Part shown: positions 10,417-38,258 of the stretch, one piece after another
Numbering within the stretch: position 1 is the stretch's first letter
Layout: each line of letters opens with the position of its first letter
NCBI GenBank assembly: GCA_947588705.1
Contig: CANPYT010000001.1
Span: 65,096 to 129,095, forward strand
DNA: 64,000 nt
Direction of reading: 5' to 3'
Source: an uncultured Acetatifactor sp.
GTDB taxonomy: Bacteria > Bacillota > Clostridia > Lachnospirales > Lachnospiraceae
The notes under the pieces: generated by a model
Seen by the model: only the letters and a program-made list of their open reading frames with translations
The model's database searches: none
Told to the model about the DNA's origin: nothing
Program-made: the position numbers and the translations under genes

Positions 10417-10434
10417 AGGTTGGTGGTATTAGGA

Positions 10435-11160: not shown

Positions 11161-11220
11161 AAGTGCCGCCCGGCCATCGGATTTTGATGATCGGGCGGCG
11201 CCTCTTATTTTTGCTTTACG

Positions 11221-20154: not shown

Positions 20155-20241
20155 GCAGAGGCATTTCCGCGTTTTTTTAGAATAGAAAGGGCGTTCATGC
20201 ACCCCTGGGCGGGGGGACATGGATGCCCTTTGTTTAGGCGG

Positions 20242-20676
20242 TCACAGGTATTTTTGGAGATCCTTGCACAGTTCTTCCTCAATGGAGATCAGGTCTTTGC
20301 AGAGACCTTTTGAGGTCTCGTTTGCGGCCTTGTACTGATTCAGGTATTTGTGCAGGGTCTTTACGCCCATGTTGCATCCGTCCGTGACCAGGTCGGCAAT
20401 TGTGGCGTCGCTGTTGTCCATGCCGATCTTCATGTTGGTCTTCATCCAGGACATGCTTTTTGCCATGATGCTGGGGTCCTTTTCTTCCGTGTGGTGCTCC
20501 ATAAGCTGGGAATGGATCTGGTTCCCAAGCTTTTCATGGTGCTCCCGGCTTTCCCGAAGCAGGTCTTTCATGCTGGAGTCGCTGATCTTTTCCATTACTT
20601 CGTCAATGGTGGAGACCGCCATCTTGGAGCCGGAGTCACATTCTTTGAGCAGGTGGATCGTATCGTTGTTTATCAT
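20242..20676 (-). CDS. Helical-bundle hypothetical protein
   Basis: GGAGG SD and an all-helical composition. No specific family assigned. Confidence 0.55.
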   Translation of the reverse strand: MINNDTIHLLKECDSGSKMAVSTIDEVMEKISDSSMKDLLRESREHHEKLGNQIHSQLMEHHTEEKDPSIMAKSMSWMKTNMKIGMDNSDATIADLVTDGCNMGVKTLHKYLNQYKAANETSKGLCKDLISIEEELCKDLQKYL

Positions 20677-20752
20677 AATTCAAACCTCCGTTTCTTTGTC
20701 CGGAAAGCTGCCGGATCTTCTTTTTAGTGTGGCCGGAAGCGAGAGGTTTTAT

Positions 20753-20848
20753 GCGGCTGAGGGAGCGCCATCTTATGAGCAAAGATAGGCGCAAGGCGCC
20801 GGAGAGCGCGTAAGCACGGCTTTGTGAATGGCGCGGGCCGAACTGCTT
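20753..20848 (+). repeat. Intergenic palindromic repeat family, full-length copy C
   Basis: GCGGCTGAGGGAGCGCCATCTTATGAGCAAAGATAGGCGCAAGGCGCCGGAGAGCGCGTAAGCACGGCTTTGTGAATGGCGCGGGCCGAACTGCT. Confidence 0.85.
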
Positions 20849-20885
20849 TCTATAGGTATAGGCCGAACTGCTTTCTATAGGTATA
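20836..20885 (+). repeat. Perfect 25-bp tandem duplication at the right edge of repeat copy C
   Basis: GGCCGAACTGCTTTCTATAGGTATA occurs twice (20836-20860 and 20861-20885). Confidence 0.9.
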
Positions 20886-20887
20886 GA

Positions 20888-20916
20888 TTGACTTTATTGC
20901 CAAAAACAGGTATTAT
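20888..20916 (+). promoter_or_regulatory. Sigma-A-type promoter upstream of the EAL gene
   Basis: TTGACT, 17 nt, TATTAT. Confidence 0.5.
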
Positions 20917-21035
20917 TATAAAGGATGAATAAATTTTTAACGGTATGAAGGAGATTGTTTAGCCTATTTTTATATTGTTGCGATGTGATTTTTGTTTATA
21001 CCGCCGGATAGAAACCGCGGGGTGGAGATGATCAT

Positions 21036-22961
21036 ATGGGGAAAGATATCGTTCTTGATTTAGCGGCTCTTATCATAATCGTTGTATTGCTTATTTCCTG
21101 TATTTTGCGCAAAATGACGGGCAGCAGGTCAAACCGTGTGTTTCTTCTGCTTGTTCTTACGGTCGCCGCCTCCACTGTCTTTGATATCGCGGCGGTTCTG
21201 CTTGACAGGAACGTAAACGCCAATATACACGCGCTATATGCTGCCCATTTCGGGTATTCGCTCACGCATTTTCTGACGGCGCCGCTTTATCTGGTCTTCT
21301 TTATCAGTCTCGCCGATACATGGCATGTGCTGAAAAAGAGCATATTGCTAAAGGTCATGATGTTCTCCCCAACCATAATAGTGGTGGCGCTTTTCCTTAT
21401 CAATACGCATACGGGAATCTTGTTTTCTGTTGACGGCGGGTATACCCGGGGCCCTTATTATTTCCTGCTGTATGTAAATGTCTTTCTCTACGTTGTTTTT
21501 GATATCATTTTTATTTCCTGGTTTCACAAGCTGTTCAGCCTCGGCGATCTGATGGCCATTCTTTTTGTGGTTGTATTCATCATTGGATCGATGGTCGTAC
21601 AGATGCTCAATCCGGAGAATCTGGTAGAGATGTTCGTAGGCTCTGTAAGCCTGTTCCTCCTCAGTACATTTATGCAGCGGCCGGAAGAGTATGTGGATTC
21701 CTTTACGGGGCTCATGAAGCACAGCGCGTATGCCCGCGATATGAAACGCAATTATTTCAATGGCAAGCATGTGACAGTGATCATGCTGAATATCAGCAAT
21801 TATGAGTCCGTGCAGGCCATGATAGGATTTGACTCTATCATGGAGCTTTTGAAGAAGGTGGCGGAGGAAATTCATGACAGCAATAAAAGGCTCCACGGCC
21901 ATGCGGATCTGTATTATCTTGACAATGGCAGATTCCGTATCATGTTCTCGGGCAAAGACAGAGCCAGAGCGGAGGCTGTGGCGGAGGATTTAAACCGGAA
22001 GCTGAAGCAGCCCATGCACTTCAGGGGTGTTGACATCACGCTTGCGCCTTTTATCGTGATCTCGCAGTGCCCGGAAGAAATGACGGACTTTAAGATGCTC
22101 ATGGCTTTCGGCGCGGATTTCCACAAAAAGAACTATTACACAGGACGCGTTATGCGGGCAAGCGAGATGTATGATAAAAATGAACTTGATATTCAGACAA
22201 ATATCGACCTGATCATTGAGCGGGCAATCGAAAATGACAGTTTCCAGGTGTACTATCAGCCGATATATTCCCTGACAAGAGGCAAGTTTATTTCCGCGGA
22301 AGCCCTTATCCGGCTGATCGATCCGCAGCATGGCTACATCTCGCCGGAAGCCCTTATTACCGCCGCGGAAAGGAGCGGCGCCATCCATAAGATCGGTGAG
22401 ATCGTATTCGACAAGGTATGCCAGTTTATCGCGAGTGAAGAATTTAACGACCTTGGGCTTGATTATATTGAGGTGAACCTGTCGGTGGCACAGATCATGG
22501 ACAGTGACCTTCCGGATATCATTACCTCTACCATGGAGAAATATAATATCGCCCCGGATAAGATCAATCTGGAGATCACGGAGACTGCGGCCTCGTATAC
22601 ACAGAGGGTTATGATGGAAAACCTCAATAAGCTTGTAAACGCCGGATTCAGTTTTTCCCTGGATGATTACGGCACGGGCTATTCCAATATGCAGCGGGTC
22701 ATCCAGATGCCGCTGAAGCTGATAAAGCTGGACAAGTCGTTTGTGGATGAAAATAACAATCCAAAAATGTGGATCTTCCTGGAAAATACGGTTAAGATGT
22801 TAAAAGACATGAACATGGAGATCGTTATCGAGGGAGTAGAAACACAGGAAATGCTGAATGCCTTTACCGATCTGAAGTGCGATTTTGTCCAGGGATATAT
22901 CTTTTCAAAGCCTATCCCTAAAAAGGACTTTGTGACGTTTATCGCGAATGCAAATAAATAA
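21036..22961 (+). CDS. Membrane sensor protein with degenerate GGDEF and intact EAL domain (c-di-GMP phosphodiesterase)
   Basis: About 6 N-terminal TM helices. The GGDEF position reads LDNGRF. EAL motifs: ISAEALIR, LEITE, DDYGTGYSN, KLDKSF, EGVET and QGYIFSKP. Confidence 0.85.
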   Translation: MGKDIVLDLAALIIIVVLLISCILRKMTGSRSNRVFLLLVLTVAASTVFDIAAVLLDRNVNANIHALYAAHFGYSLTHFLTAPLYLVFFISLADTWHVLKKSILLKVMMFSPTIIVVALFLINTHTGILFSVDGGYTRGPYYFLLYVNVFLYVVFDIIFISWFHKLFSLGDLMAILFVVVFIIGSMVVQMLNPENLVEMFVGSVSLFLLSTFMQRPEEYVDSFTGLMKHSAYARDMKRNYFNGKHVTVIMLNISNYESVQAMIGFDSIMELLKKVAEEIHDSNKRLHGHADLYYLDNGRFRIMFSGKDRARAEAVAEDLNRKLKQPMHFRGVDITLAPFIVISQCPEEMTDFKMLMAFGADFHKKNYYTGRVMRASEMYDKNELDIQTNIDLIIERAIENDSFQVYYQPIYSLTRGKFISAEALIRLIDPQHGYISPEALITAAERSGAIHKIGEIVFDKVCQFIASEEFNDLGLDYIEVNLSVAQIMDSDLPDIITSTMEKYNIAPDKINLEITETAASYTQRVMMENLNKLVNAGFSFSLDDYGTGYSNMQRVIQMPLKLIKLDKSFVDENNNPKMWIFLENTVKMLKDMNMEIVIEGVETQEMLNAFTDLKCDFVQGYIFSKPIPKKDFVTFIANANK

Positions 22962-22963
22962 GG

Positions 22964-23022
22964 GATTTTGGGAGAGTAAGGTACATACGGTTGTGATAAA
23001 ATAAAATAGAACGGTTGGAAAC
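22964..23022 (+). repeat. Junction repeat W, copy 1 (spoIIID-like stub plus AAAATAGAACGGTTGGAAA)
   Basis: ATTTTGGGAGAGTAAGGTACATACGGTTGTGATAAAATAAAATAGAACGGTTGGAAA resembles 27872-27930. Confidence 0.55.
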
Positions 23023-23109
23023 TGCGCAGGAGACTGGGAGAGAAATCCCACAACCCAAAGGCCGCCTGATGTATGCGTAATGTGAGCACCGTTATGATTG
23101 GAAAAAATT

Positions 23110-23185
23110 GAAATGGGATGCTAAATGAGAGATGATCTGTTATACTATAATGGCAGACAGGAGGTTCGTATGAGTACGCTTGAAG
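23110..23185 (+). repeat. Antitoxin leader and first codons, copy 1 (partner at 29105-29182)
   Basis: GAAATGGGATGCTAAATGAGAGATGATCTGTTATACTATAATGG...ATGAGTACGCTTGAAG compared with GAAAATGGGGTGCTAAATGAGAGATTATCTGTTATGCTATAATGG...ATGAGTACGCTTAAAG. Confidence 0.8.
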
Positions 23186-23400
23186 CAAATATGGCATTAT
23201 TATCAACAATTCCCGAAGAAAACCAGAAAGAGATCCAAAAATATCTTCTGGTTAATTTTTGCGAAAATAACCCGTACAGGCCCCTCGGCCGTGGCGAAAT
23301 CCTCGAAGAGCTTGCAGAATCAAGGAAGTGTTACGAGAACGGCGAAGGAGAATACCTTGATACGGTTATTGATGAAATCGAGATGAAGTATGGCTTATAA
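23170..23400 (+). CDS. Type II antitoxin (partner of RelE/ParE toxin)
   Basis: 76-aa acidic protein. Overlaps the toxin start by 11 nt. GGAGG SD. Confidence 0.65.
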   Translation: MSTLEANMALLSTIPEENQKEIQKYLLVNFCENNPYRPLGRGEILEELAESRKCYENGEGEYLDTVIDEIEMKYGL

Positions 23401-23722
23401 AGTAATTATCATGCCTCCGGCCAGAAGAAGGTTGGAGATGTATATATACTATACAATAGAAACACTGAAAAACAGACCAGCCGCCAAAGCAATTCTTGCG
23501 GATGCCAGAGATACTCGTAAGCGTTTATCTCTGACGGCTGATTCTTTGCGAGTTTGTGAGAATCCCTTATTGGCAAAGCATGGTTATCGAAAGATTTATT
23601 TTGCAAAACATAGATTCCTGATGATATATCGAATACAGGATAATACGGTTATTGTGGATGGTATGTTTCACGAATTACAGGATTATGAAGGGGTTTTTAT
23701 AAATGAACTCCATCTGCAGTAG
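23390..23722 (+). CDS. RelE/ParE-family type II toxin
   Basis: 110 aa. Pattern KVIIMPPARRRL...YRKIYFAKHRFLMIYRIQDNTVIVDGMFH is typical of the RelE/ParE fold. Confidence 0.7.
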   Translation: MAYKVIIMPPARRRLEMYIYYTIETLKNRPAAKAILADARDTRKRLSLTADSLRVCENPLLAKHGYRKIYFAKHRFLMIYRIQDNTVIVDGMFHELQDYEGVFINELHLQ

Positions 23723-23779
23723 AACGTTGAACTAATGATTTTCTTATGAAAATTAGAGAAGATTAAAAGTGGTGGCAAT

Positions 23780-24055
23780 ATGATTAGGGATATGATTGTA
23801 TATATCAAAGTGAATATTAAAGAAAATTACGACAAGAAGGATTTGAAAATGTTGGCAGAGAATATAAAAGAAGAGTTGATTCGGGGATTAACCGATATTG
23901 ATCTTTATGTGGAACCGATTGACCTCACTATGACATCAGGAAAGTTAGAAAAGGATAAAGCGTATAGAGAATTTCATTTTGGGAAGAGAAGGGGCTGCCG
24001 TGTGGCAGCCCCTTCTTTCTATGTGTCTTCTTTTGTGTCTTCTTTTTCAAAATAG
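23780..24055 (+). CDS. Doubtful small ORF containing a remnant of an MNT 5' end
   Basis: The ORF runs through a strong terminator hairpin. Internal MLAENIKEELIRGLTDI matches the N-terminus of the 28135 nucleotidyltransferase (MLSEEMREELVRGLTDI). Confidence 0.25.
   Translation: MIRDMIVYIKVNIKENYDKKDLKMLAENIKEELIRGLTDIDLYVEPIDLTMTSGKLEKDKAYREFHFGKRRGCRVAAPSFYVSSFVSSFSK
23987..24016. terminator. Hairpin terminator between convergent transcription units
   Basis: AGAAGGGGCTGCC gtgt GGCAGCCCCTTCT, with a T-rich tail on the + strand. Lies directly after the stop of the XRE gene on the - strand. Confidence 0.65.
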
Positions 24056-24366
24056 GAAAAGATTGTGCGCAGCACATTGATCGCCATTTGCTTGCGTTCC
24101 AGAGGCTGGCCGTCTGTAATCTGCCGGAACTGTTCCAGGATGTTGGAGTCAGTATCCGGCACGGAATCTGCCAACATGTAATCGACAGTCACGCCCAGCC
24201 GGTTGACCAGCCTCACAAGTGTATCCAGTGTGAGGCAGCGTTCCCCGCGTTCAATGGCTCCCATATAGGTATCGGATATGTCGATATCTTCTGCAAGCAT
24301 AGCCTGAGTAAGGTGCAGCCGCAGACGTTCTTCCCGGATTCGTTTTCCCAAGTGTTTATAGTCCAT
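24019..24366 (-). CDS. XRE-family HTH transcriptional regulator
   Basis: LGKRIREERLRLHLTQAMLAEDIDISDTYMGAIERGER. Confidence 0.85.
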   Translation of the reverse strand: MDYKHLGKRIREERLRLHLTQAMLAEDIDISDTYMGAIERGERCLTLDTLVRLVNRLGVTVDYMLADSVPDTDSNILEQFRQITDGQPLERKQMAINVLRTIFSYFEKEDTKEDT

Positions 24367-24550
24367 ATTTCCTCTTATTCTGCCGCATTGGCGGCCATTT
24401 CAAAAACTGGGGCTTTGTGTGTCGGCACAAATCCCGGATTGAAAGAATTGATTTTTGGTCTTCACCTCTCATTCCATTTTATATACGGGAAGTGTTTAGA
24501 AAAAATATCTGTGAGGGGTATCCATATTGACTTATAGGGGTTATCGTGAT

Positions 24551-25318
24551 ATGATAAATAAAATATCGGATCGAAAAAAAGGAGAAAACAGGGAATTTCG
24601 GGAAAGAAGGTGTTTTCCTATCAGGCAGTACAGAAATGAGTGGAAATATGTCTGTAAACAGGGAGAGCTGGTTCGGATCGCGGAAAAGCTTTCCGGTATT
24701 TTGGAAAAAGATACATATTGCGGCAGTGACGGCAGATACGAGGTACATAGCCTGTACTTTGACCGAATCGACGATTCGTGTATGATGGATACGGACGCAG
24801 GTCTCGGCGAGAGGTGCAAATGGCGGATCCGCTGTTACGGAAATGACCGCACTGTATTCAAACTGGAACGAAAAGAAAAAAAGAACGGAAAATGCTGCAA
24901 GCAAAGCTGCTTTTTATCCCTGGATACTTTTCAGGAGATCATGGGGAAAAGGGTCAATGAAGTATTTTGGAAGACAGAGGAAATCCTTCTGAAAAAATTT
25001 TGCGTGGACGCCATGACCGGCTTATTGGAGCCGAAGGTAATCATAGACTATGAGCGGACGGCATATGTTGAGCCAGCTACCAACCTTCGCATTACATTAG
25101 ACAGAAATATCTCGGCGGCGTATGCGGTAGAAGATTTTTCTGAGGGCGGTTATATCCGTTATCCTGTACAGGAAAAGGAGAAACACGTCCTGGAAGTTAA
25201 ATTTGACCATATCCTTCCGGGATACATTAAGAGCATTACAAATGACGGTTCGCTTATCCAAACATCCTTTTCGAAGTATTATCTTGGCAGGATGAGATTA
25301 AAAAATATGGGCAGATAA
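24551..25318 (+). CDS. VTC-domain (triphosphate-tunnel, polyphosphate-polymerase-like) protein
   Basis: Ordered tunnel signature: RNEWKY, KWRIRCY, KLERKEKK, ERTAYVE, LRITLDRN and VLEVKF. Confidence 0.7.
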   Translation: MINKISDRKKGENREFRERRCFPIRQYRNEWKYVCKQGELVRIAEKLSGILEKDTYCGSDGRYEVHSLYFDRIDDSCMMDTDAGLGERCKWRIRCYGNDRTVFKLERKEKKNGKCCKQSCFLSLDTFQEIMGKRVNEVFWKTEEILLKKFCVDAMTGLLEPKVIIDYERTAYVEPATNLRITLDRNISAAYAVEDFSEGGYIRYPVQEKEKHVLEVKFDHILPGYIKSITNDGSLIQTSFSKYYLGRMRLKNMGR

Positions 25319-25430
25319 GTCTGGCAGGCCCAACGGAAGGAGAAAAAGCTCGCCGCAGATCCTGCCATGCGCAAAAGCGGAGCGGAGGCAATTGTCATGT
25401 GCAGAGAACAGCGCAGAAATGGAGAGAAAA

Positions 25431-26102
25431 ATGAACATAATACCAAGAATTTTCAATAATATAGCCGGTACCTATGAAAATCCGATTATCGATGCGACAA
25501 CGACCGTCTCCGTATTGACGGTGGTGCTCCTTTTAGCGCTGTACGAATTTTTGATATACCGGATCGTGTCTCACCGATCCTTTTTCAATAAGTCTTTCAA
25601 CATCTGCATAGCGATCCTTCCGTTTTTTATCGCCACGATCATTCTTTGCCTGCAATCGAATGTTGTTATCACACTGGGCACGATTGGGGCGCTTGCCATC
25701 ATCCGATTCCGCACTGCCGTGAAAGATCCGGTGGACATGCTGTATATCCTGTGGTCGGTCTATATCGGAATCGTGTGCGGCTGCCAGCTCTATGAAGTGG
25801 CGGTTCTCACATCCCTTGTGGTCACAGTGTTTTTGATCCTTTTAAACAGGGTATCCCTCGGAAAAGCGCCGTTTCTGCTGGTACTGCACTGCAGGCCGGA
25901 GCAGGAGGATGAGGTCTTTCAGGAGATAAAGGCCCAATGTAGGAAATACCGTGTGAAAAGCAGAAATTATACGTCTCGGGGAATGGATTATGTCATAGAA
26001 TTTTCCGTGAAGGCGCCGGAAAAATTAGCGCAGGGGCTCAGGGAAAAAGAAGTGGAACGCTTTTCCATCATAAGCTATGACGGCGAGGATGTGATCGGAT
26101 GA
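25431..26102 (+). CDS. DUF4956-like multi-pass membrane protein
   Basis: 4-5 predicted TM helices followed by a charged soluble tail. The stop overlaps the next start (ATGA). Confidence 0.6.
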   Translation: MNIIPRIFNNIAGTYENPIIDATTTVSVLTVVLLLALYEFLIYRIVSHRSFFNKSFNICIAILPFFIATIILCLQSNVVITLGTIGALAIIRFRTAVKDPVDMLYILWSVYIGIVCGCQLYEVAVLTSLVVTVFLILLNRVSLGKAPFLLVLHCRPEQEDEVFQEIKAQCRKYRVKSRNYTSRGMDYVIEFSVKAPEKLAQGLREKEVERFSIISYDGEDVIG

Positions 26103-27745
26103 TGAATGCGAAAAAAAGATTGCGTATCCTTCTCCTGGCCGTCTCCGCGGGAGCCCTTTTCTGGCTGCTGTCCTTTCGGGGGTCTGCCGTGCAGTTCTCT
26201 GAACTGGCCGTTACGGCGGCGCAGTTTGATCAGCTCCGGTCGCAGTATGCGGATACGGAAAAGAACCTGATCAATGGGATCTGGTTTGGAGAGGAGGAAC
26301 TGTTTTTTGATCCTGTATCCGACACTTATTATTATTCCCTGCCGGAAGGAGATCCCGACGCTTTTGATCCGCAGGTAAGGATAAGGTCTCAATATCGTAA
26401 TGTGTCGATCGCTGTACTGGAGGGAAACATGACCAGGGATAGTATCGCGCAGGATGCGGTGACGGAGATGATAGCGTATGACGGGAGCGTCAGCAGAATC
26501 TATCATTTGAAATGCACAACGCTGCCTTTGCTGAACATTTCAACGGAAAATTCGGAGGAGATTTCAGAAAGTGCCGTGCCAATGGAACTGACGCTCTTTG
26601 ACAACCGCAGAGGTGCGCCAAACAGGGTTACCTGTTCCGACGGATATATCCATGTCAGGGGAGGTACGACGAAAGTCTTTCCAAAACTTGGCTATCGGAT
26701 TTCACTGACACAGGTGTCGCTTGGGGAGAATAAACGCCCCAACGATATTTCGCTGTTAGGGATGAGGAAGGACGATGACTGGATCTTATATGCCGGGTAT
26801 AACGATCAGGAAAAAATACGTAATGTCTTTTCTTCAAATCTGTGGCAGTATTCCTGTGCCGTGGATAACAAAAAGAAAGTCAATACGGGCATGGAGTACA
26901 GGTATCTGGAACTTTTTGTGAATAACCGATACTGGGGGCTGTATGCGATAGGATATCCGATAGATGAAAAACAGCTTAATTTTGATGCGGACAGTTATGA
27001 TACCGCACTCTTCAAGAAAGTGTCCTGGGCCCTCGAAAGTGATTTTGTGCCAGGCAGCGCGGTGATGCAGGGATATCGGCTGGCATCGGCAGCCGACCCG
27101 CAAAAGGAGGAGCTGATTACAAGAAAGTGGGATTTATTGATCGATTATTATGAAAATCTTACAGCCAACGTATATGACAATGAGATGCTGTATAAGGGAA
27201 TCGATATTGACAATGCTGTCGATGCCTATCTTTTCTTTAATTTGATCCAGGGGTCGGATAATGTTGACAATGCCAGGATAAAAAATGTATATCTTGCAGT
27301 GGAGCGGAGCGCGGATCGGATCATGGCCCTGTACTGCCCGTGGGATATGGACATGTCATGGGGCAACTACTGGTCCCATGGAGGGAAAAATCTGACAGTG
27401 CCGTATGGATGGAGCGCTGCGGAAAACTGTTACCTTGGGAGCGGTTATTTTGGGCAGCTGTGTTCCAATCAGGATCCCGAAATCTGGAACTATGTCTATG
27501 AAAAATATGAAGAACTGCGGAGGACCGCATGGTCGGATGAAAATATTGCAAAACTTTTGGACGAATATGAAGAAGATATTTTTTCTTCCGGGGCCTATTT
27601 GCGGGACAGTGAAAGATGGCCGGAAGGCACTTACGCCGACAACGCCCAGGGGCTGGACGTGTTCAGGAAATATGTGGCGGACAGATTAGCGGTGATGGAT
27701 TCCTATTACAAGAAATCTGTTCCCGCAACGCATATCTCCCCCTGA
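26099..27745 (+). CDS. CotH-family atypical kinase, N-terminally anchored or exported
   Basis: Leader KKRLRILLLAVSAGALFWLLSF. CotH-like blocks YLELFVNNRYWGLYAIGYP and ALYCPWDMDMSWG. Confidence 0.7.
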   Translation: MMNAKKRLRILLLAVSAGALFWLLSFRGSAVQFSELAVTAAQFDQLRSQYADTEKNLINGIWFGEEELFFDPVSDTYYYSLPEGDPDAFDPQVRIRSQYRNVSIAVLEGNMTRDSIAQDAVTEMIAYDGSVSRIYHLKCTTLPLLNISTENSEEISESAVPMELTLFDNRRGAPNRVTCSDGYIHVRGGTTKVFPKLGYRISLTQVSLGENKRPNDISLLGMRKDDDWILYAGYNDQEKIRNVFSSNLWQYSCAVDNKKKVNTGMEYRYLELFVNNRYWGLYAIGYPIDEKQLNFDADSYDTALFKKVSWALESDFVPGSAVMQGYRLASAADPQKEELITRKWDLLIDYYENLTANVYDNEMLYKGIDIDNAVDAYLFFNLIQGSDNVDNARIKNVYLAVERSADRIMALYCPWDMDMSWGNYWSHGGKNLTVPYGWSAAENCYLGSGYFGQLCSNQDPEIWNYVYEKYEELRRTAWSDENIAKLLDEYEEDIFSSGAYLRDSERWPEGTYADNAQGLDVFRKYVADRLAVMDSYYKKSVPATHISP

Positions 27746-27900
27746 CCCCTCATAAGATGTAAAAAACATTCTTAAGGGCATCCCTATGAAAGAATATATT
27801 GAGGAGCGGGCTATCAGTATTGCCAATTATATCATTGACAGTAATGCCACGGTTCGTCAGACGGCGAAAAATTTTGGAGTGAGTAAGAGTACGGTACATA
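27588..27900 (+). repeat. 313-bp direct repeat, copy 1 (cotH 3' end, 40-nt spacer, spoIIID codons 1-38)
   Basis: Aligns base-for-base with 29191-29503 at an offset of 1603. I see only 2 mismatches (27608 a/t; 27881 g/a). Confidence 0.9.
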
Positions 27901-27917
27901 TGGTCGTAACAAAATAG
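27786..27917 (+). pseudogene. spoIIID: Truncated spoIIID copy (38 native codons plus MVVTK and a stop)
   Basis: Matches the 5' end of the intact gene at 29389 (1 mismatch, 27881 g/a) up to ...GVSKSTVH, then diverges at 27901. Confidence 0.85.
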
Positions 27918-27930
27918 AACGGTTCGGAAA
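27872..27930 (+). repeat. Junction repeat W, copy 2 (end of truncated spoIIID plus AAAATAGAACGGTTCGGAAA)
   Basis: ATTTTGGAGTGAGTAAGAGTACGGTACATATGGTCGTAACAAAATAGAACGGTTCGGAAA. Confidence 0.55.
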
Positions 27931-27997
27931 GGGCGTATGGGTGGTAAGGTAAATATTGCAGATTGCAGGTGAAAGCGATTGCATCAGATGTGTAAGG

Positions 27998-28042
27998 GCA
28001 TCGGGAAAACGAAAGGGTTTCCCGGTGCTCTTTTTTGTTTTT
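27998..28042 (+). terminator. Rho-independent terminator
   Basis: GCATCGGGAAAAC gaaa GGGTTTCCCGGTGC followed by TCTTTTTTGTTTTT. Confidence 0.75.
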
Positions 28043-28046
28043 GATA

Positions 28047-28075
28047 TTGTGAAGCGGAAGGATTGAGGGTATAAT
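28047..28075 (+). promoter_or_regulatory. Sigma-A-type promoter of the MNT-HEPN cassette
   Basis: TTGTGA, 17 nt, TATAAT. Confidence 0.5.
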
Positions 28076-28134
28076 TTAATTAGTAATATATAGATTAATT
28101 CATGAAAAGAGACGGCTTCAGGAGGTATTCTGTA

Positions 28135-28464
28135 ATGTTATCCGAGGAAATGAGAGAAGAATTGGTGCGTGGATTGACAGATATCTTTCAAAATAATATT
28201 TCCATGATCATTTTATATGGTTCGGCGGCAAGGAATGAAGCAACGATCGAGAGCGATGTTGATGTTGCGATCATTGTGAAAGATTCGATGGACAATGACA
28301 CAAAAAGCCGCTTCGTTAGATGGGTTGCCAATATGGATCTACGTTATGAAAGAGTATTTTCCATTGTGGATATACAAGAAAGCAATCTGATGAAATGGGA
28401 AAAGGTACTGCCATTTTATCAGAATATTCGTAAGGAGGGAATCGTCCTGTGGAAGGCAGCTTAA
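28135..28464 (+). CDS. Nucleotidyltransferase-domain protein (MNT-type TA component)
   Basis: ILYGSAARNEAT..SDVDVAIIV minimal NTase motif. AGGAGG SD. Confidence 0.8.
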   Translation: MLSEEMREELVRGLTDIFQNNISMIILYGSAARNEATIESDVDVAIIVKDSMDNDTKSRFVRWVANMDLRYERVFSIVDIQESNLMKWEKVLPFYQNIRKEGIVLWKAA

Positions 28465-28841
28465 AAGAGTTATCAGAATATCGCATGGCAAGAGCGAAAG
28501 AAATGCTGATGGCCGCTGAAAGTAATTTGGAGATAGGACAATATAAAACATCTCTGAACAGGTCATATTATGCAGTTTTTCATGCGATGCGTGCAGTTAA
28601 TGCTTTGAAAAAGTATGATTCTTCCAAACATTCAGGTGTGATAGCTTTTTTTACAAAAGAATATTTGAAGACAGAGATTTTGGATAGAGGTTTGGCGGCT
28701 ATCATTAAAGAGAGTTCTCTGTGCAGGGAAAAATCGGACTATGATGATTTTTATGTAGCGGGAAAAGGAGAGGCAGAGGAGCAGCTTAAAAATGCAAAAT
28801 ATTTTGTGCAGAAGATTGAGGAATATATTATGAGTATTTGA
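28449..28841 (+). CDS. HEPN-domain protein (TA partner of MNT)
   Basis: 16-nt overlap with the MNT gene. Helical HEPN pattern (AKEMLMAAESNL, SLNRSYYAVFHAMRA, REKSDYDD). Confidence 0.75.
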   Translation: MEGSLKELSEYRMARAKEMLMAAESNLEIGQYKTSLNRSYYAVFHAMRAVNALKKYDSSKHSGVIAFFTKEYLKTEILDRGLAAIIKESSLCREKSDYDDFYVAGKGEAEEQLKNAKYFVQKIEEYIMSI

Positions 28842-28862
28842 ATGATTGAGGGTGCAGGTTGA

Positions 28863-29057
28863 ATGAGAATTGCAATAAAACGTAAAGGCGCATTTTGGGC
28901 GGTGTGGGGATCGACGATGAATGATTATATAGAATATCAGCGGTCTGTGGCGTTAGAATTTCAGGCATATAAAAATAGAGTCCGCAATATGGTTGGCAGC
29001 TGCCACTGGGGTGAAGATGGACGATACAAAGAATTAGAGATACGAATAGAGATATGA
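28863..29057 (+). CDS. Short ORF, probably a truncated gene fragment
   Basis: ORF only (64 aa). Ends abruptly before the duplicated antitoxin leader. Confidence 0.25.
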   Translation: MRIAIKRKGAFWAVWGSTMNDYIEYQRSVALEFQAYKNRVRNMVGSCHWGEDGRYKELEIRIEI

Positions 29058-29104
29058 AAGACTAAAAGGGATATTGATGCTGTTAAAAGGATAATATAAA
29101 GGAT

Positions 29105-29182
29105 GAAAATGGGGTGCTAAATGAGAGATTATCTGTTATGCTATAATGGTAGACGGGAAGGTGCGCATGAGTACGCTTAAAG
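29105..29182 (+). repeat. Antitoxin leader and first four codons, orphan copy 2, fused to the cotH 3' fragment
   Basis: See the partner at 23110. Here the ATG-AGT-ACG-CTT is followed directly by the 313-bp repeat. Confidence 0.8.
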
Positions 29183-29190
29183 TGTTTTTC

Positions 29191-29503
29191 CCGGGGCCTA
29201 TTTGCGGGACTGTGAAAGATGGCCGGAAGGCACTTACGCCGACAACGCCCAGGGGCTGGACGTGTTCAGGAAATATGTGGCGGACAGATTAGCGGTGATG
29301 GATTCCTATTACAAGAAATCTGTTCCCGCAACGCATATCTCCCCCTGACCCCTCATAAGATGTAAAAAACATTCTTAAGGGCATCCCTATGAAAGAATAT
29401 ATTGAGGAGCGGGCTATCAGTATTGCCAATTATATCATTGACAGTAATGCCACGGTTCGTCAGACGGCGAAAAATTTTGGAGTAAGTAAGAGTACGGTAC
29501 ATA
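29191..29503 (+). repeat. 313-bp direct repeat, copy 2 (orphan cotH 3' fragment plus the start of intact spoIIID)
   Basis: See copy 1. The cotH-derived part (29191-29348) has no upstream reading frame. Confidence 0.9.
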
Positions 29504-29652
29504 AGGATGTAACCGACCGGCTCATGCAGATCAATCCCGCTCTGGCAAAACAGGCCCGGCAGGTGCTGGATGTAAACAAATCGGAACGCCATATTCGAGG
29601 GGGCATGGCGACAAAAGAAAAATATCTGCACAGGCAGCACCCGGAAGAGTGA
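29389..29652 (+). CDS. spoIIID: Stage III sporulation protein D (mother-cell transcription factor)
   Basis: 87 aa. MKEYIEERAISIANYIIDSNATVRQTAKNFGVSKSTVHKDVTDRL... is the canonical SpoIIID HTH. Confidence 0.9.
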   Translation: MKEYIEERAISIANYIIDSNATVRQTAKNFGVSKSTVHKDVTDRLMQINPALAKQARQVLDVNKSERHIRGGMATKEKYLHRQHPEE

Positions 29653-29660
29653 AGAAAAAA

Positions 29661-29710
29661 AGACCAAAATACAGATATGGCCTCATATCTTTGTATCGAG
29701 GTCTTTTTTC
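29661..29710 (+). terminator. Rho-independent terminator after spoIIID
   Basis: Long imperfect hairpin AGACC...GGTCT followed by TTTTTT. Confidence 0.65.
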
Positions 29711-29819
29711 GTTGTATTCTGGTTTACATTTTCTTCTATTCGAGATAAAATAGAACAGAGCTGTGAGCGCACAGCGTCTCATGGCTTATACTCGAATAAA
29801 AACTGCGAAGGACAAGGAT

Positions 29820-31157
29820 ATGCTGTATTCAAATCAAGATCTGAAGAAACTGATCATTCCGCTGGTGTTTGAGCAGCTTTTGGCTCTCCTGGTGGGCCTG
29901 GCGGACACGTTGATGATTTCCGGCGTGGGCGAAGCTGCCGTGTCGGGGGTATCTCTGGTCGATACGATCAATGTACTGATCATCAACATTTTTACGGCTT
30001 TCGGCACCGGAGGCGCCGTTATTGCAGGCCATTATCTGGGGAAAAAGGATCGTGAGGATGCATGCAGGGCGGGATGGCAGATCCTGCTTTTCTCCCTGCT
30101 CAGCTCGCTGGTAGTGACAGTGATCTTTATCCTGTTCCACAACGGCCTGCTTGAGCTGATCATCGGGAGGGTGGAACCGGCGGTGATGGACAATGCCAAA
30201 TCTTATCTTGTTGTGACGGCGATCTCCTTTGTGCCATTGGCCGTATACAATGCCTGCGCCGGGCTGTTCCGCACGATGGGAGATTCCAAGACGACCCTGT
30301 ATATTTCGGTGTTTATGAACATCCTGAACGTGATCGGAAACGCCGTCCTGATCTATGGGGCCGGAAAGGGAACGCTGGGAGCCGCGATATCCACCACATT
30401 TTCGCGGACAGTGGCTGCGGTTATCATTTTGGCTTTATTATTTGACGATAAAAGGACGATCAGTTTTAAAGGCCAGGTGACATTACGGTTTCGGGTGGAT
30501 ATGCTGAAAAAGATTTTGTACATAGGACTTCCCAACAGCCTGGAGAACAGCCTGTTCCAGCTGGGCAAGATCCTGACGATCAGCATGATCTCCACGATGG
30601 GAACTTATGCTATTGCGGCAAATGCAGTGTGTAATACGCTGGCATCTTTCAATGTTTTGCCGGGTTCCGCCATAAACAGCGGCATCGTGGCGATCGTGTC
30701 CGTGTGCGTCGGGGCCGGGGAGACGGAGCAGGCCCGGTATTACACGAAGAAGCTGATGAAGCTGGCGGAGCTCTGCGTGATCCTTATGTCGGCGCTGATC
30801 ATTGCGGGGTCCGGCTGGGTGATCTCGTTTTACCACTTGAGCCCCGAGGCATCCAAGCTTGCCCGGGAAGTGCTCACTTATCACGCGGTGATGGTGATTC
30901 TGGCCTGGCTGTTGTCTTTTTCGCTTCCCAATACCTTCCGGGCGGCGGGAGACGTGGTCTTGCCAATGGCGGTCGCTATTGCGTCCATGTGGATTTTCCG
31001 GCTTGGCTTTGCCTATCTGTTGGGAATACATATGAAGATGGGGCTGATGGGAGTGTGGATCGCCATGACCATAGACTGGGTATTCCGGGCAATCTGTTTC
31101 GCAATACGTTTCAAGGGACATAAATGGGAGCGGAAAATGATAGGAGGAAAGGCATGA
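29820..31157 (+). CDS. MATE-family efflux transporter
   Basis: 12-TM profile. N-terminus LIIPLVFEQLLALLVGLADTLMIS is typical of MATE. Confidence 0.85.
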   Translation: MLYSNQDLKKLIIPLVFEQLLALLVGLADTLMISGVGEAAVSGVSLVDTINVLIINIFTAFGTGGAVIAGHYLGKKDREDACRAGWQILLFSLLSSLVVTVIFILFHNGLLELIIGRVEPAVMDNAKSYLVVTAISFVPLAVYNACAGLFRTMGDSKTTLYISVFMNILNVIGNAVLIYGAGKGTLGAAISTTFSRTVAAVIILALLFDDKRTISFKGQVTLRFRVDMLKKILYIGLPNSLENSLFQLGKILTISMISTMGTYAIAANAVCNTLASFNVLPGSAINSGIVAIVSVCVGAGETEQARYYTKKLMKLAELCVILMSALIIAGSGWVISFYHLSPEASKLAREVLTYHAVMVILAWLLSFSLPNTFRAAGDVVLPMAVAIASMWIFRLGFAYLLGIHMKMGLMGVWIAMTIDWVFRAICFAIRFKGHKWERKMIGGKA

Positions 31158-37999: not shown

Positions 38000-38258
38000 A
38001 AAATCTTCCTCCAGTCTAAAATACTTGCACGGGCATCTGGCGGATACAGCCAGGGGCGCTGTGTGCCGATGCCACGCATTATGCGCCGGCCAAAGCGGAT
38101 GCGGCCATGATGGCGATAGCATGTGCAGCTTTCCAAAAACTATACGACAAAGCAACAAAAAACACATGTTAAAAATAAAATACGCAAGATGTAGTTTTCA
38201 AAACTACATCCAGGCAAAATGATAGTACAACGGATCCGTGGAATTGTCAACAGGAAAA

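What the first reader, a model, noticed from the sequence alone, without database searches (positions are those of the whole stretch)
24019..27745. Candidate novel system: VTC-like polyphosphate polymerase, DUF4956 membrane protein and exported CotH kinase operon, divergent from an XRE regulator
**Seen in sequence.**
- Three co-directional genes. The last two are fused by an ATGA overlap (26099-26102). All three diverge from an XRE HTH gene.
- Gene 1 keeps the ordered triphosphate-tunnel signature: RNEWKY, KWRIRCY, KLERKEKK, ERTAYVE, LRITLDRN, VLEVKF.
- Gene 2 is a multi-pass membrane protein with a charged soluble tail.
- Gene 3 has a single N-terminal anchor or signal (LRILLLAVSAGALFWLLSF) followed by CotH-type blocks, so its catalytic domain should face outward.

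**Established knowledge.**
- The Vtc4 tunnel domain of the eukaryotic VTC complex polymerises polyphosphate from ATP and threads it through an associated membrane channel.
- CotH proteins are atypical protein kinases of spore coats.

**Inference.**
- The trio may be a bacterial analogue of the VTC machine. A cytoplasmic polymerase would be docked on DUF4956 as the conduit, delivering polyP or another phosphoryl donor to an extracytoplasmic CotH enzyme that has no ATP outside the cell.
- As far as I know, no function has been demonstrated for this gene trio.
- It sits in an accessory block flanked by TA cassettes and immediately upstream of spoIIID. This suggests a link to spore or envelope maturation.
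Basis: partly seen in the sequence, partly recalled or inferred. Interest (0 to 1): 0.72.

Follow-up and report, generated by a model that had tools for sequence, protein, structure and literature searches.

The report
Bacterial VTC-like polyphosphate / CotH operon
A tightly packed three-gene operon encodes a cytoplasmic enzyme resembling the yeast polyphosphate polymerase, an MgtC-like membrane protein and an exported CotH-type kinase; it is real, widely conserved in gut bacteria and of unknown function, but the trio had already been noticed next to Pel biofilm genes.

Summary
**Observation: confirmed.**
- The three co-directional genes, the ATGA overlap and the divergent XRE gene are all present, and all three Pfam models hit above their curated cut-offs.
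- The gene 1 model matches the yeast Vtc4 catalytic tunnel best. Eight of the nine published Vtc4 catalytic residues align identically, including the Ser-Lys pair that separates active Vtc4 from inactive Vtc2/3.
- Gene 2 is MgtC-like: about five membrane helices plus an ACT-like tail.
- Gene 3 carries one N-terminal hydrophobic segment, as do 116 of 120 homologues, so it is probably exported.

**Conservation.**
- All three genes lie together in 73 of 80 species-level genomes, with median gaps of 5 and 9 nt.
- No fourth partner is conserved.
- The XRE gene, the TA cassettes and spoIIID are local context only.

**Interpretation: partly supported.**
- The trio is not unnoticed. It is described as cotH/PPP/DUF4956 accessory genes of Gram-positive Pel operons and occurs in C. 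perfringens NELoc-2.
- No biochemical function has been shown.
- Here it stands alone, contrary to a 2025 statement that the synteny is confined to Pel loci.
- PolyP export through DUF4956 and polyP use by CotH remain untested. A VTC-gene deletion in S. intermedius had no phenotype.
- The sporulation link is not supported.

**Scores.** New variant of a known kind; interest 0.6.

The parts
24551..25318 (+). Gene 1: a soluble, stand-alone VTC-type triphosphate-tunnel protein, annotated elsewhere as 'polyphosphate polymerase domain-containing protein'. It is 255 aa from ATG 24551. The ORF is open from TTG 24527.
   Evidence: - Pfam VTC: E 1.2e-32, full length.
- AlphaFold2 model: pLDDT 88.7. Residues 1-21 are disordered, consistent with homologues of about 233 aa.
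- Foldseek: top hits are Vtc4 3G3R/3G3Q at E 3e-13, TMq 0.69, ahead of YgiF (2e-8) and CYTH enzymes (about 1e-6).
- Profile A4 against the PDB hits Vtc4 at E 5.5e-6. Residue mapping: R92=R264, R94=R266, K108=K281, Y167=Y359, R169=R361, E215=E426, S241=S457, K242=K458.
- No hydrophobic segment in the window protein or in 118 of 120 homologues.
25431..26102 (+). Gene 2: a DUF4956 membrane protein of 223 aa. It has about five hydrophobic helices followed by a cytoplasmic ACT-like domain (MgtC-like architecture). It is the best conserved of the three genes.
   Evidence: - Pfam DUF4956: E 3.2e-10, above the cut-off. The MgtC match is below its cut-off (E 8.3e-5).
- NCBIfam MgtC/SapB: weak match.
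- 62-80% identity across Lachnospiraceae homologues, with a nearly invariant core ITLGTIGALAI(I/L)RFRTAVKDPVDM...GCQLYE.
- AlphaFold2 model is poor overall (pLDDT 57). The C-terminal domain (146-215, pLDDT about 75) has beta-alpha-beta-beta-alpha-beta topology.
- Its best Foldseek hits are the MgtC C-terminal domains 7QA5 (E 1.9e-3) and 2LQJ (E 8e-3).
- Hydropathy shows 3-5 hydrophobic segments.
26099..27745 (+). Gene 3: a CotH-family kinase-like protein of 548 aa. It has a single N-terminal signal peptide or anchor (residues 8-26), an uncharacterised domain of about 155 aa, and then the CotH domain (184-533). Its start overlaps the stop of gene 2 (ATGA).
   Evidence: - Pfam CotH: E 7.3e-29, spanning 1-322 of 322.
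- ATGA overlap confirmed.
- 116 of 120 homologues have exactly one hydrophobic segment, at the N-terminus. None has a C-terminal anchor or LPXTG motif.
- G188, Y278/G280/Y282, W415-D416 and R529 stay invariant across trio-linked CotH proteins only 16-21% identical.
- A distant trio-linked CotH (Planococcus) matches the solved B. cereus CotH 5JD9 at E 1.2e-4.
- Most homologues carry an extra C-terminal extension of about 270 aa with no Pfam match. This protein lacks it.
24019..24366 (-). A divergently transcribed XRE-family HTH gene (115 aa). It is a local neighbour and possibly a local regulator. It is not a conserved part of the module.
   Evidence: - Pfam HTH_3: E 7.6e-13.
- No XRE family recurs among the neighbours of 80 related loci.
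- The closest relative, L002, has a dynamin-like GTPase at this position instead.
24367..24550 (.). The 184-nt divergent intergenic region between the XRE gene and gene 1, presumed to hold the promoter.
   Evidence: - No Rfam family reaches its gathering score here. The only match touching this side (23958-24098) has E 0.32.
- Promoter-like matches are no more frequent than in shuffled sequence: 12 found against 12.7 expected.
- So no regulatory element is demonstrated.

Best explanation
The three genes form one self-contained, translationally coupled operon that links a cytoplasmic phosphoanhydride polymerase to an enzyme acting outside the membrane.

**Step 1 (well supported).** Gene 1 is a stand-alone Vtc4-type triphosphate-tunnel enzyme. 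It keeps the full catalytic residue set, so it most likely polymerises polyphosphate from ATP.

**Step 2 (inferred).** Gene 1 works at the membrane together with the MgtC-like DUF4956 protein. That protein's cytoplasmic ACT-like domain docks or regulates the polymerase. Its highly conserved helical bundle either passes the product outward or couples synthesis to the envelope.

**Step 3 (location supported, chemistry inferred).** The CotH-family kinase-like protein is exported. It uses or processes this phosphate donor to phosphorylate a cell-surface substrate. The substrate is most likely a secreted glycopolymer or a matrix or wall component, because distant versions of the trio sit inside exopolysaccharide (Pel and other) gene clusters.

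In this genome the operon stands alone, with a local XRE regulator.
For: **Module integrity.**
- All three genes are present in 73 of 80 species-level loci. The order VTC-DUF4956-CotH holds in 54 of them, and VTC and DUF4956 are almost always adjacent.
- Median gaps are 5 and 9 nt, with many 4-nt and 1-nt overlaps.
- The flanking genes differ between lineages and no fourth family recurs.
- The trio persists at 25-31% identity on Pseudobutyrivibrio and Planococcus plasmids.

**Polymerase.**
- Pfam VTC match.
- Confident model whose best structural matches are Vtc4.
- Profile alignment places R92, R94, K108, Y167, R169, E215, S241 and K242 on Vtc4 R264, R266, K281, Y359, R361, E426, S457 and K458. 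K458 is the only residue that differs in the inactive Vtc2/3. All eight are invariant or nearly invariant in alignments A1 and A4.

**Membrane partner.** MgtC-like helical domain plus ACT-like tail, with extreme conservation.

**Exported CotH.**
- One N-terminal hydrophobic segment in 116 of 120 homologues.
- A homologue is reported in the S. gordonii secretome.
- The WD motif stays invariant across very divergent members.

**Envelope or glycan link.**
- Pel association in streptococci, clostridia and bifidobacteria.
- The variant CotH carries carbohydrate-type CHB_HEX_C/Fn3_assoc domains and sits in clusters with GT11, GT2, GT4, MBOAT and ABC genes.
- Exopolysaccharide cluster on plasmid pNP95.
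- Deleting CotH or DUF4956 changes Pel levels and aggregation in S. intermedius.
Against: - No biochemical activity has been shown for any member.
- In S. intermedius, deleting the VTC-like gene gave no aggregation or Pel phenotype, while deleting the other two did. A strictly linear polyP-supply pathway does not predict this.
- DUF4956 has no detectable similarity to the Vtc1/DUF202 channel helices. The MgtC family is not known to form a pore. The model of its membrane part is unreliable (pLDDT about 50).
- The CotH ectodomain is net acidic (79 D+E against 55 K+R), which does not favour electrostatic polyP binding.
- The CotH catalytic aspartates could not be mapped rigorously onto a solved structure.
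- The N-terminal segment could be a membrane anchor rather than a cleaved signal.
- The genome survey is biased towards close relatives, because two peptide patterns defined the search.
Confidence: 0.4

Rival explanations
1. Matrix or exopolysaccharide regulation without polyP export. CotH is a secreted protein or glycan kinase using another donor, or it acts as a non-catalytic binding protein. The VTC-like and MgtC-like proteins form a cytoplasmic, membrane-associated phosphate- or energy-sensing unit that tunes polymer production. PolyP, if made, stays inside the cell, as the S. intermedius authors suggested.
For: - Pel association, and opposite effects of the CotH and DUF4956 deletions on Pel amount.
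- The authors' view that polyP 'may remain in the cytoplasm' because no Vtc1-like partner is present.
- The ACT-like domain suggests ligand sensing.
- Salmonella MgtC acts on the F1Fo ATP synthase and PhoR rather than as a transporter (cited).
- A c-di-GMP EAL protein lies 1.5 kb upstream here. A DGC/PDE gene accompanies the trio in bifidobacteria.
Against: - It does not explain why an exported kinase-like enzyme is so strictly coupled in translation to a cytoplasmic polymerase in 73 of 80 genomes, most of them without adjacent polysaccharide genes.
- It offers no phosphate donor for an extracytoplasmic kinase.
Confidence: 0.25
2. Intracellular polyphosphate storage or phosphate-magnesium homeostasis. 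The VTC-like enzyme is an alternative to PPK1/PPK2 that builds cytoplasmic polyP granules under the control of the MgtC-like protein. CotH is only loosely connected to this function.
For: - The Vtc4 catalytic set is intact.
- Orphan VTC-like genes exist without the two partners, and two of them lie next to an H+-pyrophosphatase and FeoB (L036 and L045).
- The MgtC family has links to phosphate metabolism.
Against: - CotH travels with the pair in 73 of 80 loci, often with overlapping stop and start codons.
- The orphan forms are a small minority.
Confidence: 0.15
3. Spore coat or spore-envelope maturation module. The operon would be expressed during sporulation next to spoIIID, and CotH would phosphorylate spore-surface proteins as in Bacillus.
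For: - The host is a spore former: SipL, a SleB-like hydrolase and SpoIIID are in the window.
- The trio lies just upstream of spoIIID here and in the closest relatives L001-L004.
- Bacillus CotH is a coat kinase.
Against: - The spoIIID adjacency is confined to the nearest relatives. Other lineages flank the trio with HflX, HtrA/MutS2, Mfd/Pth and others.
- The trio occurs in streptococci and bifidobacteria and in contigs assigned to Saccharibacteria, Solobacterium and Flexilinea, none of which sporulate.
- Bacillus CotH works in the mother-cell cytoplasm without a signal peptide, whereas this CotH has one.
Confidence: 0.06
4. Anti-phage defence or toxin-linked accessory island, suggested by the flanking toxin-antitoxin cassettes and the lower G+C content.
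For: - G+C falls to 42-48% across 20-30 kb, against 54-58% elsewhere.
- MNT/HEPN and ParE-type cassettes flank the operon.
- The XRE and MNT proteins match PADLOC accessory models.
Against: - None of the three trio proteins matches any PADLOC model.
- The TA cassettes are not conserved next to the trio.
- The trio keeps its position between AsnS/NlpC-P60 and spoIIID in a related species, while the TA/XRE segment is replaced.
Confidence: 0.02

Closest known systems
Eukaryotic VTC complex (yeast Vtc4 catalytic tunnel domain with the Vtc1/2/3 membrane pore)
   Same: - Same TTM tunnel fold (Foldseek E 3e-13, TMq 0.69).
- Same triphosphate-binding residues, including E426, S457 and K458.
- Like VTC, the polymerase is genetically tied to a small multi-pass membrane protein.
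   Different: - No SPX domain.
- No fused DUF202-type three-helix membrane domain and no Vtc1 homologue.
- The membrane partner is MgtC-like (DUF4956) with an ACT-like tail.
- An exported CotH-family enzyme is an obligatory third component.
- About 18% sequence identity.
- Polymerase and translocase activities are untested.
cotH / PPP / DUF4956 (/DUF4832) accessory genes of Gram-positive pel operons (Whitfield et al. 2020; S. intermedius SIR_1594-SIR_1592, mBio 2025)
   Same: - The same three protein families are encoded side by side.
- CotH is predicted to be secreted, the VTC-like protein cytoplasmic, and DUF4956 a 4-5 TM protein with an ACT domain.
   Different: - No pel genes and no DUF4832 were found among about 50 ORFs scanned in this window or within +/-10 kb in related loci.
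- The gene order differs: VTC-DUF4956-CotH here, against CotH-VTC-DUF4956 there.
- The CotH here lacks the FN3 domain.
- The 2025 paper states the synteny was not found outside Pel loci. The survey here finds it as an autonomous operon in most of 73 genomes.
Bacillus CotH spore-coat Ser/Thr kinase (B. subtilis CotH; B. cereus CotH, PDB 5JD9)
   Same: - Same Pfam family.
- A distant trio-linked member matches 5JD9 directly.
- The RG...K...Y N-lobe motif and the WD motif are conserved.
   Different: - This protein has a signal peptide or anchor and an extra N-terminal domain of about 155 aa.
- Bacillus CotH is cytoplasmic in the mother cell and phosphorylates CotB and CotG.
- No cotB or cotG-like partner is present here.
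- This type of CotH occurs in non-sporulating bacteria.
MgtC/SapB/YhiD family membrane proteins
   Same: - N-terminal hydrophobic domain of about five helices plus a C-terminal ACT-like domain.
- Weak Pfam and NCBIfam matches.
- The best structural hits for the tail are MgtC C-terminal domains.
   Different: - Scores are below the curated MgtC cut-offs, and Pfam keeps DUF4956 as a separate family.
- The genetic context is different.
- MgtC's known actions (inhibiting F1Fo, targeting PhoR) are not shown for this protein.
C. perfringens NELoc-2 (two VTC-domain proteins, CotH, HEAT-repeat protein, glycosyltransferase, polysaccharide deacetylase)
   Same: VTC-domain and CotH genes are linked in a Firmicute accessory locus. 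The Planococcus plasmid locus found here has a similar HEAT-repeat and glycosyltransferase context.
   Different: - NELoc-2 is a larger pathogenicity-associated locus with polysaccharide genes.
- The window locus has only the three core genes.

Membership tests
Vtc4-type polyphosphate polymerase (VTC / TTM superfamily) | Eight-stranded beta-barrel tunnel fold of the VTC central domain | tested here: met
   - Pfam VTC spans 2-231 of 235 at E 1.2e-32.
- AlphaFold2 model: pLDDT 88.7.
- The top 13 Foldseek hits are all VTC-subunit tunnel domains (Vtc4, Vtc3, Vtc2), E 3e-13 to 4e-10. Generic TTM enzymes are at least 1000-fold weaker.
Vtc4-type polyphosphate polymerase (VTC / TTM superfamily) | Triphosphate and Mn-binding residues K200, R264, R266, K281, Y359, R361, E426, S457, K458 | tested here: met
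   - The profile alignment to 3G3Q (E 5.5e-6) puts identical residues at eight of the nine positions: R92, R94, K108, Y167, R169, E215, S241, K242.
- K200 lies outside the aligned stretch. Its equivalence to K32 (RNEWKY) is inferred from the R-x3-K spacing.
- The second aligned stretch (E215 to K242) is individually weak (3.1 bits) but fits the motifs and the fold match.
Vtc4-type polyphosphate polymerase (VTC / TTM superfamily) | Lys at the K458 position, which distinguishes active Vtc4 from inactive Vtc2/3 (Ile/Leu) | tested here: met
   S241-K242 is invariant in alignments A1 and A4 and aligns with S457-K458.
Vtc4-type polyphosphate polymerase (VTC / TTM superfamily) | N-terminal SPX domain and C-terminal DUF202-type transmembrane domain, assembled with Vtc1 | tested here: not met
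   - The protein is 255 aa with only the tunnel domain.
- No hydrophobic segment in the window protein or in 118 of 120 homologues.
- No other Pfam domain is detected.
Vtc4-type polyphosphate polymerase (VTC / TTM superfamily) | ATP-dependent polyP synthesis | not testable with these tools
   This needs expression and a polyP assay.
CotH kinase family (PF08757) | Full-length CotH atypical kinase domain | tested here: met
   - Pfam CotH at 101.7 bits against a 23.8-bit cut-off, spanning 1-322 of 322.
- A trio-linked relative matches B. cereus CotH 5JD9 at E 1.2e-4.
CotH kinase family (PF08757) | Catalytic aspartates equivalent to B. subtilis D228 and D251 | tested here: inconclusive
   - W415-D416 is invariant even at 16-21% identity. 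D387 and N396 are invariant within the close family.
- Their equivalence to D251 and D228 rests on motif spacing and on my recollection of the CotH structure paper. That paper could not be read.
- No sequence search reached the C-lobe of a solved CotH.
CotH kinase family (PF08757) | Spore-coat location and CotB/CotG substrates (Bacillus paradigm) | tested here: not met
   - N-terminal signal or anchor in 116 of 120 homologues.
- The family occurs in non-sporulating taxa.
- No cotB or cotG-like gene is nearby.
MgtC/SapB family | MgtC transmembrane domain scoring above the curated threshold | tested here: not met
   - Pfam MgtC: 23.4 bits against a 31.4-bit cut-off.
- NCBIfam PRK09977: 21.6 bits against a 214-bit cut-off.
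- DUF4956 itself is met: 40.5 bits against 30.6.
MgtC/SapB family | C-terminal cytoplasmic ACT-like domain | tested here: inconclusive
   - Residues 146-215 show beta-alpha-beta-beta-alpha-beta topology at pLDDT about 75.
- The best Foldseek hits are MgtC C-terminal domains, but only at E 2e-3 to 8e-3, among many generic ACT/PII folds.
Pel-associated cotH/PPP/DUF4956 accessory gene set | The three families encoded contiguously | tested here: met
   The same three families are named.
Pel-associated cotH/PPP/DUF4956 accessory gene set | Contiguity with pelDEA(DA)FG, and presence of DUF4832 or a DGC/PDE gene | tested here: not met
   - No Pel-type or DUF4832 gene among about 50 window ORFs scanned.
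- None within +/-10 kb in L002-L010.
- An EAL/degenerate-GGDEF gene does lie 1.5 kb upstream, but it is separated by a TA pair and the XRE gene, and it is absent from the related locus L002.

The most novel reading that the evidence does not exclude
The trio is a bacterial counterpart of the VTC machine with a different membrane partner. A Vtc4-like polymerase docked on an oligomer of the MgtC-like DUF4956 protein would extrude polyphosphate across the cytoplasmic membrane. The exported CotH-family enzyme would then use that polymer, not ATP, as phosphoryl donor, or attach it, to modify surface glycopolymers or proteins.

That would be three things at once:
- a third route of bacterial polyP synthesis besides PPK1 and PPK2;
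- the first defined bacterial polyP export pathway;
- the first ATP-independent extracytoplasmic kinase system.
Probability: 0.2. Interest if true: 0.9.

Novelty: new variant of a known kind. Interest (0 to 1): 0.6.

Why it matters
**Open questions it touches.**
- Bacterial polyphosphate is thought to be made by PPK1 and PPK2.
- How some bacteria place polyP outside the cell is not understood.
- How an enzyme outside the membrane could phosphorylate anything without ATP is also not understood.

**What this operon offers.**
- It pairs a protein carrying the complete catalytic signature of the eukaryotic polyP polymerase with a dedicated membrane protein and an exported kinase-like enzyme.
- The VTC-like family is large: about 8,900 sequence clusters.
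- The trio is common in gut and rumen Lachnospiraceae and turns up in biofilm (Pel) and virulence-associated loci of streptococci and clostridia.

**Why that is useful.**
- Showing that it also exists as an autonomous operon, contrary to a published statement, separates its function from Pel.
- It provides a compact three-gene target for expression and polyP assays.
- It bears on the evolutionary origin of the eukaryotic VTC catalytic domain.

Tried and rejected
**Sequence searches against the PDB.**
- Single-sequence and narrow-profile searches failed for all three proteins.
- Only a broadened VTC profile (A4) reached Vtc4.
- The variant CotH did not reach any CotH structure.
- The Planococcus CotH reached 5JD9, but only over the N-lobe. 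The CotH catalytic aspartates therefore remain unmapped.
- The CotH structure paper is not held.

**Structure prediction.**
- The DUF4956 model was poor (pLDDT 57). The alignment was probably too shallow and too similar.
- Its Foldseek hits are weak, so the conduit idea could not be tested.
- No multimer prediction was available.

**An error of mine.**
- My first neighbourhood count was contaminated by two wrong seeds, a GH2 and an aconitase. I redid it cleanly.
- My first CotH HMM was too narrow and missed a divergent CotH subtype. Pfam recovered it.

**Negative results.**
- Promoter and terminator scans gave no more sites than shuffled sequence.
- The Rfam scan found nothing significant.
- PADLOC gave no hit for the trio, which rejects the defence-system reading.

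**Ideas rejected.**
- XRE as a conserved regulator: rejected.
- A functional link to spoIIID: rejected.
- Truncation of CotH by the 300-nt repeat: rejected. The repeat includes the native 3' end, and 529-560 aa forms occur in many lineages.

**Literature.** Searches for any functional study (DUF4956; CotH+polyphosphate; CotH+VTC; CotH+MgtC; VTC-like terms) found only the Pel papers and the NELoc-2 papers.

Full report
**1. Observation**

- An XRE gene lies at 24019-24366 on the minus strand.
- Three plus-strand genes follow: 24527-25318, 25392-26102 and 26099-27745.
- The stop of gene 2 and the start of gene 3 share ATGA at 26099-26102.
- All six quoted motifs are in the translation.

Homologue lengths and the disordered first 21 residues of the model suggest two start corrections. 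Gene 1 probably starts at ATG 24551 (255 aa). Gene 2 probably starts at ATG 25431 (223 aa), which is identical to a database protein.

Pfam places the three proteins in VTC (E 1.2e-32), DUF4956 (E 3.2e-10, plus a sub-threshold MgtC match) and CotH (E 7.3e-29, full length). The divergent gene falls in HTH_3. NCBIfam adds only a weak MgtC/SapB match.

**2. Gene 1: the VTC-like protein**

The AlphaFold2 model is confident (pLDDT 88.7, pTM 0.83).
- Its best PDB matches are the Vtc4 catalytic domain (3G3R/3G3Q, E about 3e-13, TMq 0.69), the VTC cryo-EM structures and Vtc2.
- Generic tunnel enzymes are much weaker: YgiF at 2e-8 and CYTH cyclases or triphosphatases at about 1e-6.

Narrow sequence profiles did not reach the PDB. 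A broader profile with paralogues and orphan forms (A4) hit Vtc4 at E 5.5e-6 with a residue alignment.

I read the 3G3Q chain index plus 185 as Vtc4 numbering. This offset puts every checked position on the expected residue type: R264, R266, R280, K281, Y359, R361, R373, E426, K428, S457 and K458.

| Window protein (from ATG 24551) | Vtc4 |
|---|---|
| R92, R94 | R264, R266 |
| K108 | K281 |
| Y167, R169 | Y359, R361 |
| E215 | E426 |
| S241, K242 | S457, K458 |

- These are the residues that coordinate the triphosphate and Mn2+ in Vtc4, and their mutation lowers cellular polyP.
- K458 is the only one that differs in the inactive Vtc2/3 subunits.
- All are invariant or nearly invariant in alignments A1 and A4.
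- K200 lies outside the aligned stretch. Its equivalence to K32 in RNEWKY is an inference from spacing.

The protein has no SPX domain and no membrane segment; 118 of 120 homologues also lack any hydrophobic segment. The stand-alone family of about 230 aa is large: 8,923 representative clusters at E<=1e-3 and 953 at E<=1e-30.

**3. Gene 2: DUF4956**

This is the best conserved of the three, at 62-80% identity across Lachnospiraceae. Its core ITLGTIGALAI(I/L)RFRTAVKDPVDM...GCQLYE is almost invariant.
- Hydropathy and the model give about five helices followed by a beta-alpha-beta-beta-alpha-beta domain.
- The model is poor overall (pLDDT 57). Only the C-terminal domain is moderately confident.
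- That domain's best structural hits are the MgtC C-terminal domains 7QA5 and 2LQJ, at E 2e-3 to 8e-3 among many generic ACT/PII folds.
- The architecture is therefore MgtC-like, as the S. intermedius authors also concluded.
- No similarity to the Vtc1-type channel helices was detected.
- Whether it forms a conduit could not be tested here.

**4. Gene 3: the CotH-like protein**

It has one hydrophobic segment at residues 8-26, a domain of about 155 aa with no Pfam match, and then the CotH domain.
- 116 of 120 homologues have exactly one hydrophobic segment, at the N-terminus. None has a C-terminal anchor or LPXTG motif.
- A homologue is reported in the S. gordonii secretome.
- Across trio-linked CotH proteins only 16-21% identical, G188, Y278/G280/Y282, W415-D416 and R529 stay invariant.
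- Within the close family D387, N396, P414, W415, D416 and D418 are invariant.
- B. subtilis CotH is inactivated by D228Q or D251A.
- I think D387 and D416 are the equivalents of those residues. That rests on spacing and memory, because no search reached the C-lobe of the solved CotH and the structure paper is not held.
- Most homologues are about 810 aa, with a C-terminal extension that has no Pfam match. This protein and its closest relatives are short forms.

**5. Co-conservation**

Pfam-annotated contigs of close and distant relatives show the same three genes in the same order within unrelated surroundings.

| Loci | Flanking genes |
|---|---|
| L002-L004 | dynamin-like GTPase upstream; truncated spoIIID downstream |
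| L005-L008 | HflX and a second CotH upstream; GH53 downstream |
| L009-L010 | HtrA upstream; MutS2 downstream |

A scan of one genome per species returned 80 loci anchored on the VTC gene. I used local HMMs, and corrected for a divergent CotH subtype that my first HMM missed.
- 73 of the 80 loci contain all three genes.
- The orders are: 54 VTC-DUF4956-CotH, 7 CotH-VTC-DUF4956, 5 VTC-CotH-DUF4956, and 7 with extra copies.
- Of the seven exceptions, two are cut off by contig ends and four are true orphan VTC genes.
- Median intergenic distances are 5 nt (VTC to DUF4956) and 9 nt (DUF4956 to CotH), with many 4-nt and 1-nt overlaps.
- No other family recurs in more than 14 loci. The recurrent neighbours are housekeeping genes reflecting shared synteny.

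Most loci are Lachnospiraceae. Contigs labelled Saccharibacteria, Solobacterium/Erysipelotrichaceae, Flexilinea and Gastranaerophilales also carry the trio. MAG labels should be read with caution.

The survey is biased to close relatives, because two peptide patterns defined it. Even so, the trio reappears at 25-31% identity on RefSeq plasmids of Pseudobutyrivibrio and Planococcus.

**6. What is and is not part of the module**

- The window is core chromosome of a spore former (SipL, a SleB-like hydrolase, SpoIIID, DnaE, MetK and others). G+C dips at 20-30 kb.
- Compared with the Acetatifactor MAG L002, the order GHMP kinase, AsnS, NlpC/P60, then the trio, then spoIIID is shared.
- The segment just upstream of the trio differs. 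Here it holds an EAL protein, a ParE-type TA pair and the XRE gene. In L002 it holds an AP endonuclease and a dynamin-like GTPase.
- The XRE gene and the TA cassettes are therefore local additions, not partners.
- The spoIIID adjacency is limited to the nearest relatives.
- PADLOC does not recognise the trio.

**7. Link to surface glycans**

- The divergent CotH subtype carries CHB_HEX_C and Fn3_assoc domains. It sits in clusters with GT11, GT2, GT4, MBOAT/acyltransferase and ABC-transporter genes.
- The Pseudobutyrivibrio plasmid copy lies inside a large exopolysaccharide cluster.
- The Planococcus copy lies next to HEAT-repeat and glycosyltransferase genes, much like C. perfringens NELoc-2.

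**8. Literature**

- The trio is not new as an observation. Whitfield et al. described cotH, a polyphosphate polymerase gene (PPP), DUF4956 and DUF4832 as accessory genes contiguous with pelDEA(DA)FG in streptococci and clostridia. In bifidobacteria a DGC/PDE gene replaces DUF4832.
- The S. intermedius study deleted each gene.
  - Loss of CotH-FN3 (SIR_1594) lowered Pel. Loss of the MgtC/ACT protein (SIR_1592) raised it. Both reduced aggregation.
  - Loss of the VTC-like gene (SIR_1593) had no phenotype.
- Those authors state that they could not find the three-gene synteny outside Pel loci. The loci collected here contradict that.
- No paper in the library reports a biochemical activity for any member.

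**9. Mechanism**

*Shown here.*
- A conserved, translationally coupled operon.
- A Vtc4-like fold with the catalytic residue set.
- A soluble polymerase-like protein, a membrane protein and an N-terminally anchored or secreted CotH.
- Recurrent association with surface-glycan loci at greater evolutionary distance.

*Inferred.*
- Gene 1 makes polyP.
- It acts on or with DUF4956.
- The product or its phosphoryl groups reach the outside.
- CotH uses them on a surface polymer.

I rate this envelope-directed phosphoryl-transfer reading at 0.4. The rivals:

| Rival | Confidence |
|---|---|
| Regulatory or sensing role in matrix production without export | 0.25 |
| Intracellular polyP or phosphate homeostasis | 0.15 |
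| Spore maturation | 0.06 |
| Defence | 0.02 |

The silent VTC deletion in S. intermedius, the acidic CotH ectodomain and the lack of any channel evidence for DUF4956 are the main points against the preferred model.

**10. Verdict**

- The system is best described as an autonomous, Pel-independent variant of an already reported but functionally uncharacterised gene trio.
- It works most like the eukaryotic VTC polymerase at the catalytic step. It is not a member of the VTC complex family in architecture: no SPX domain, no Vtc1-type pore.
- Interest is 0.6. The strongest reading (polyP export feeding an extracytoplasmic kinase) has a probability of about 0.2 and would be highly interesting if true.

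Noticed in passing
window 27582-27881 and 29185-29484: A 300-nt direct repeat at 99% identity brackets an MNT (28102-28464) / HEPN (28449-28841) toxin-antitoxin pair. Copy 1 holds the last 164 nt of the CotH gene plus a truncated 43-codon spoIIID 5' end (27786-27917). Copy 2 runs into the intact spoIIID (29389-29652). It looks like a cassette insertion with target duplication just upstream of spoIIID. The same layout is in the independent contig L001, and a similar one is in the Acetatifactor MAG L002.
   Followed up: partly
window 23102-23162 and 29098-29158: A 61-nt repeat (85% identical) containing a TATAAT-like box lies in front of the ParE-type TA pair and again just before copy 2 of the 300-nt repeat. 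It may be a shared promoter or cassette boundary of mobile TA modules.
   Followed up: no
window 20836-20885: A perfect tandem duplication of a 25-nt unit (GGCCGAACTGCTTTCTATAGGTATA) lies about 150 nt upstream of the EAL-domain gene.
   Followed up: no
window 21036-22961: A membrane protein with an EAL domain and a degenerate GGDEF domain (c-di-GMP phosphodiesterase type) lies 1.5 kb upstream of the trio. In bifidobacteria a DGC/PDE gene accompanies the Pel-linked trio. This gene is absent from the related locus L002, so the proximity may be coincidental.
   Followed up: partly
L036 7036-12547; L045 7391-12724: Orphan VTC-like genes without DUF4956 or CotH lie between a membrane H+-pyrophosphatase and FeoB. 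They may form a separate subfamily tied to pyrophosphate or metal metabolism.
   Followed up: partly
L082 and L083 (3.5-16.2 kb); L019; L088: Some Lachnospiraceae carry two or three VTC-DUF4956 pairs interleaved with several CotH genes in one locus. This points to paralogous expansion of the module.
   Followed up: partly
L053, L055, L057, L061, L062, L069, L076: A divergent CotH subtype with N-terminal CHB_HEX_C_1 and Fn3_assoc domains is sometimes placed between VTC and DUF4956. It sits in glycan clusters with GT11, GT2, GT4, MBOAT, Acyl_transf_3 and ABC-transporter genes.
   Followed up: partly
phage collection hits H4-H7 (MT838813.1, MT837266.1, MT836222.1, MT835527.1): Four unannotated 'Bacteriophage sp.' contigs from human faeces encode VTC-like proteins at 27-29% identity. 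They may be misclassified bacterial fragments or real phage cargo.
   Followed up: no
window 10001-12000, 20001-30000, 38001-40000: Three stretches have markedly lower G+C (42-48% against 54-58% elsewhere). The middle one contains the EAL gene, both TA cassettes, the XRE gene, the trio and spoIIID.
   Followed up: partly
PMC12345266 (mBio 2025), discussion: The published statement that the CotH/VTC/DUF4956 synteny is not found outside Pel loci is contradicted by the window and by most of the 73 complete loci collected here.
   Followed up: yes
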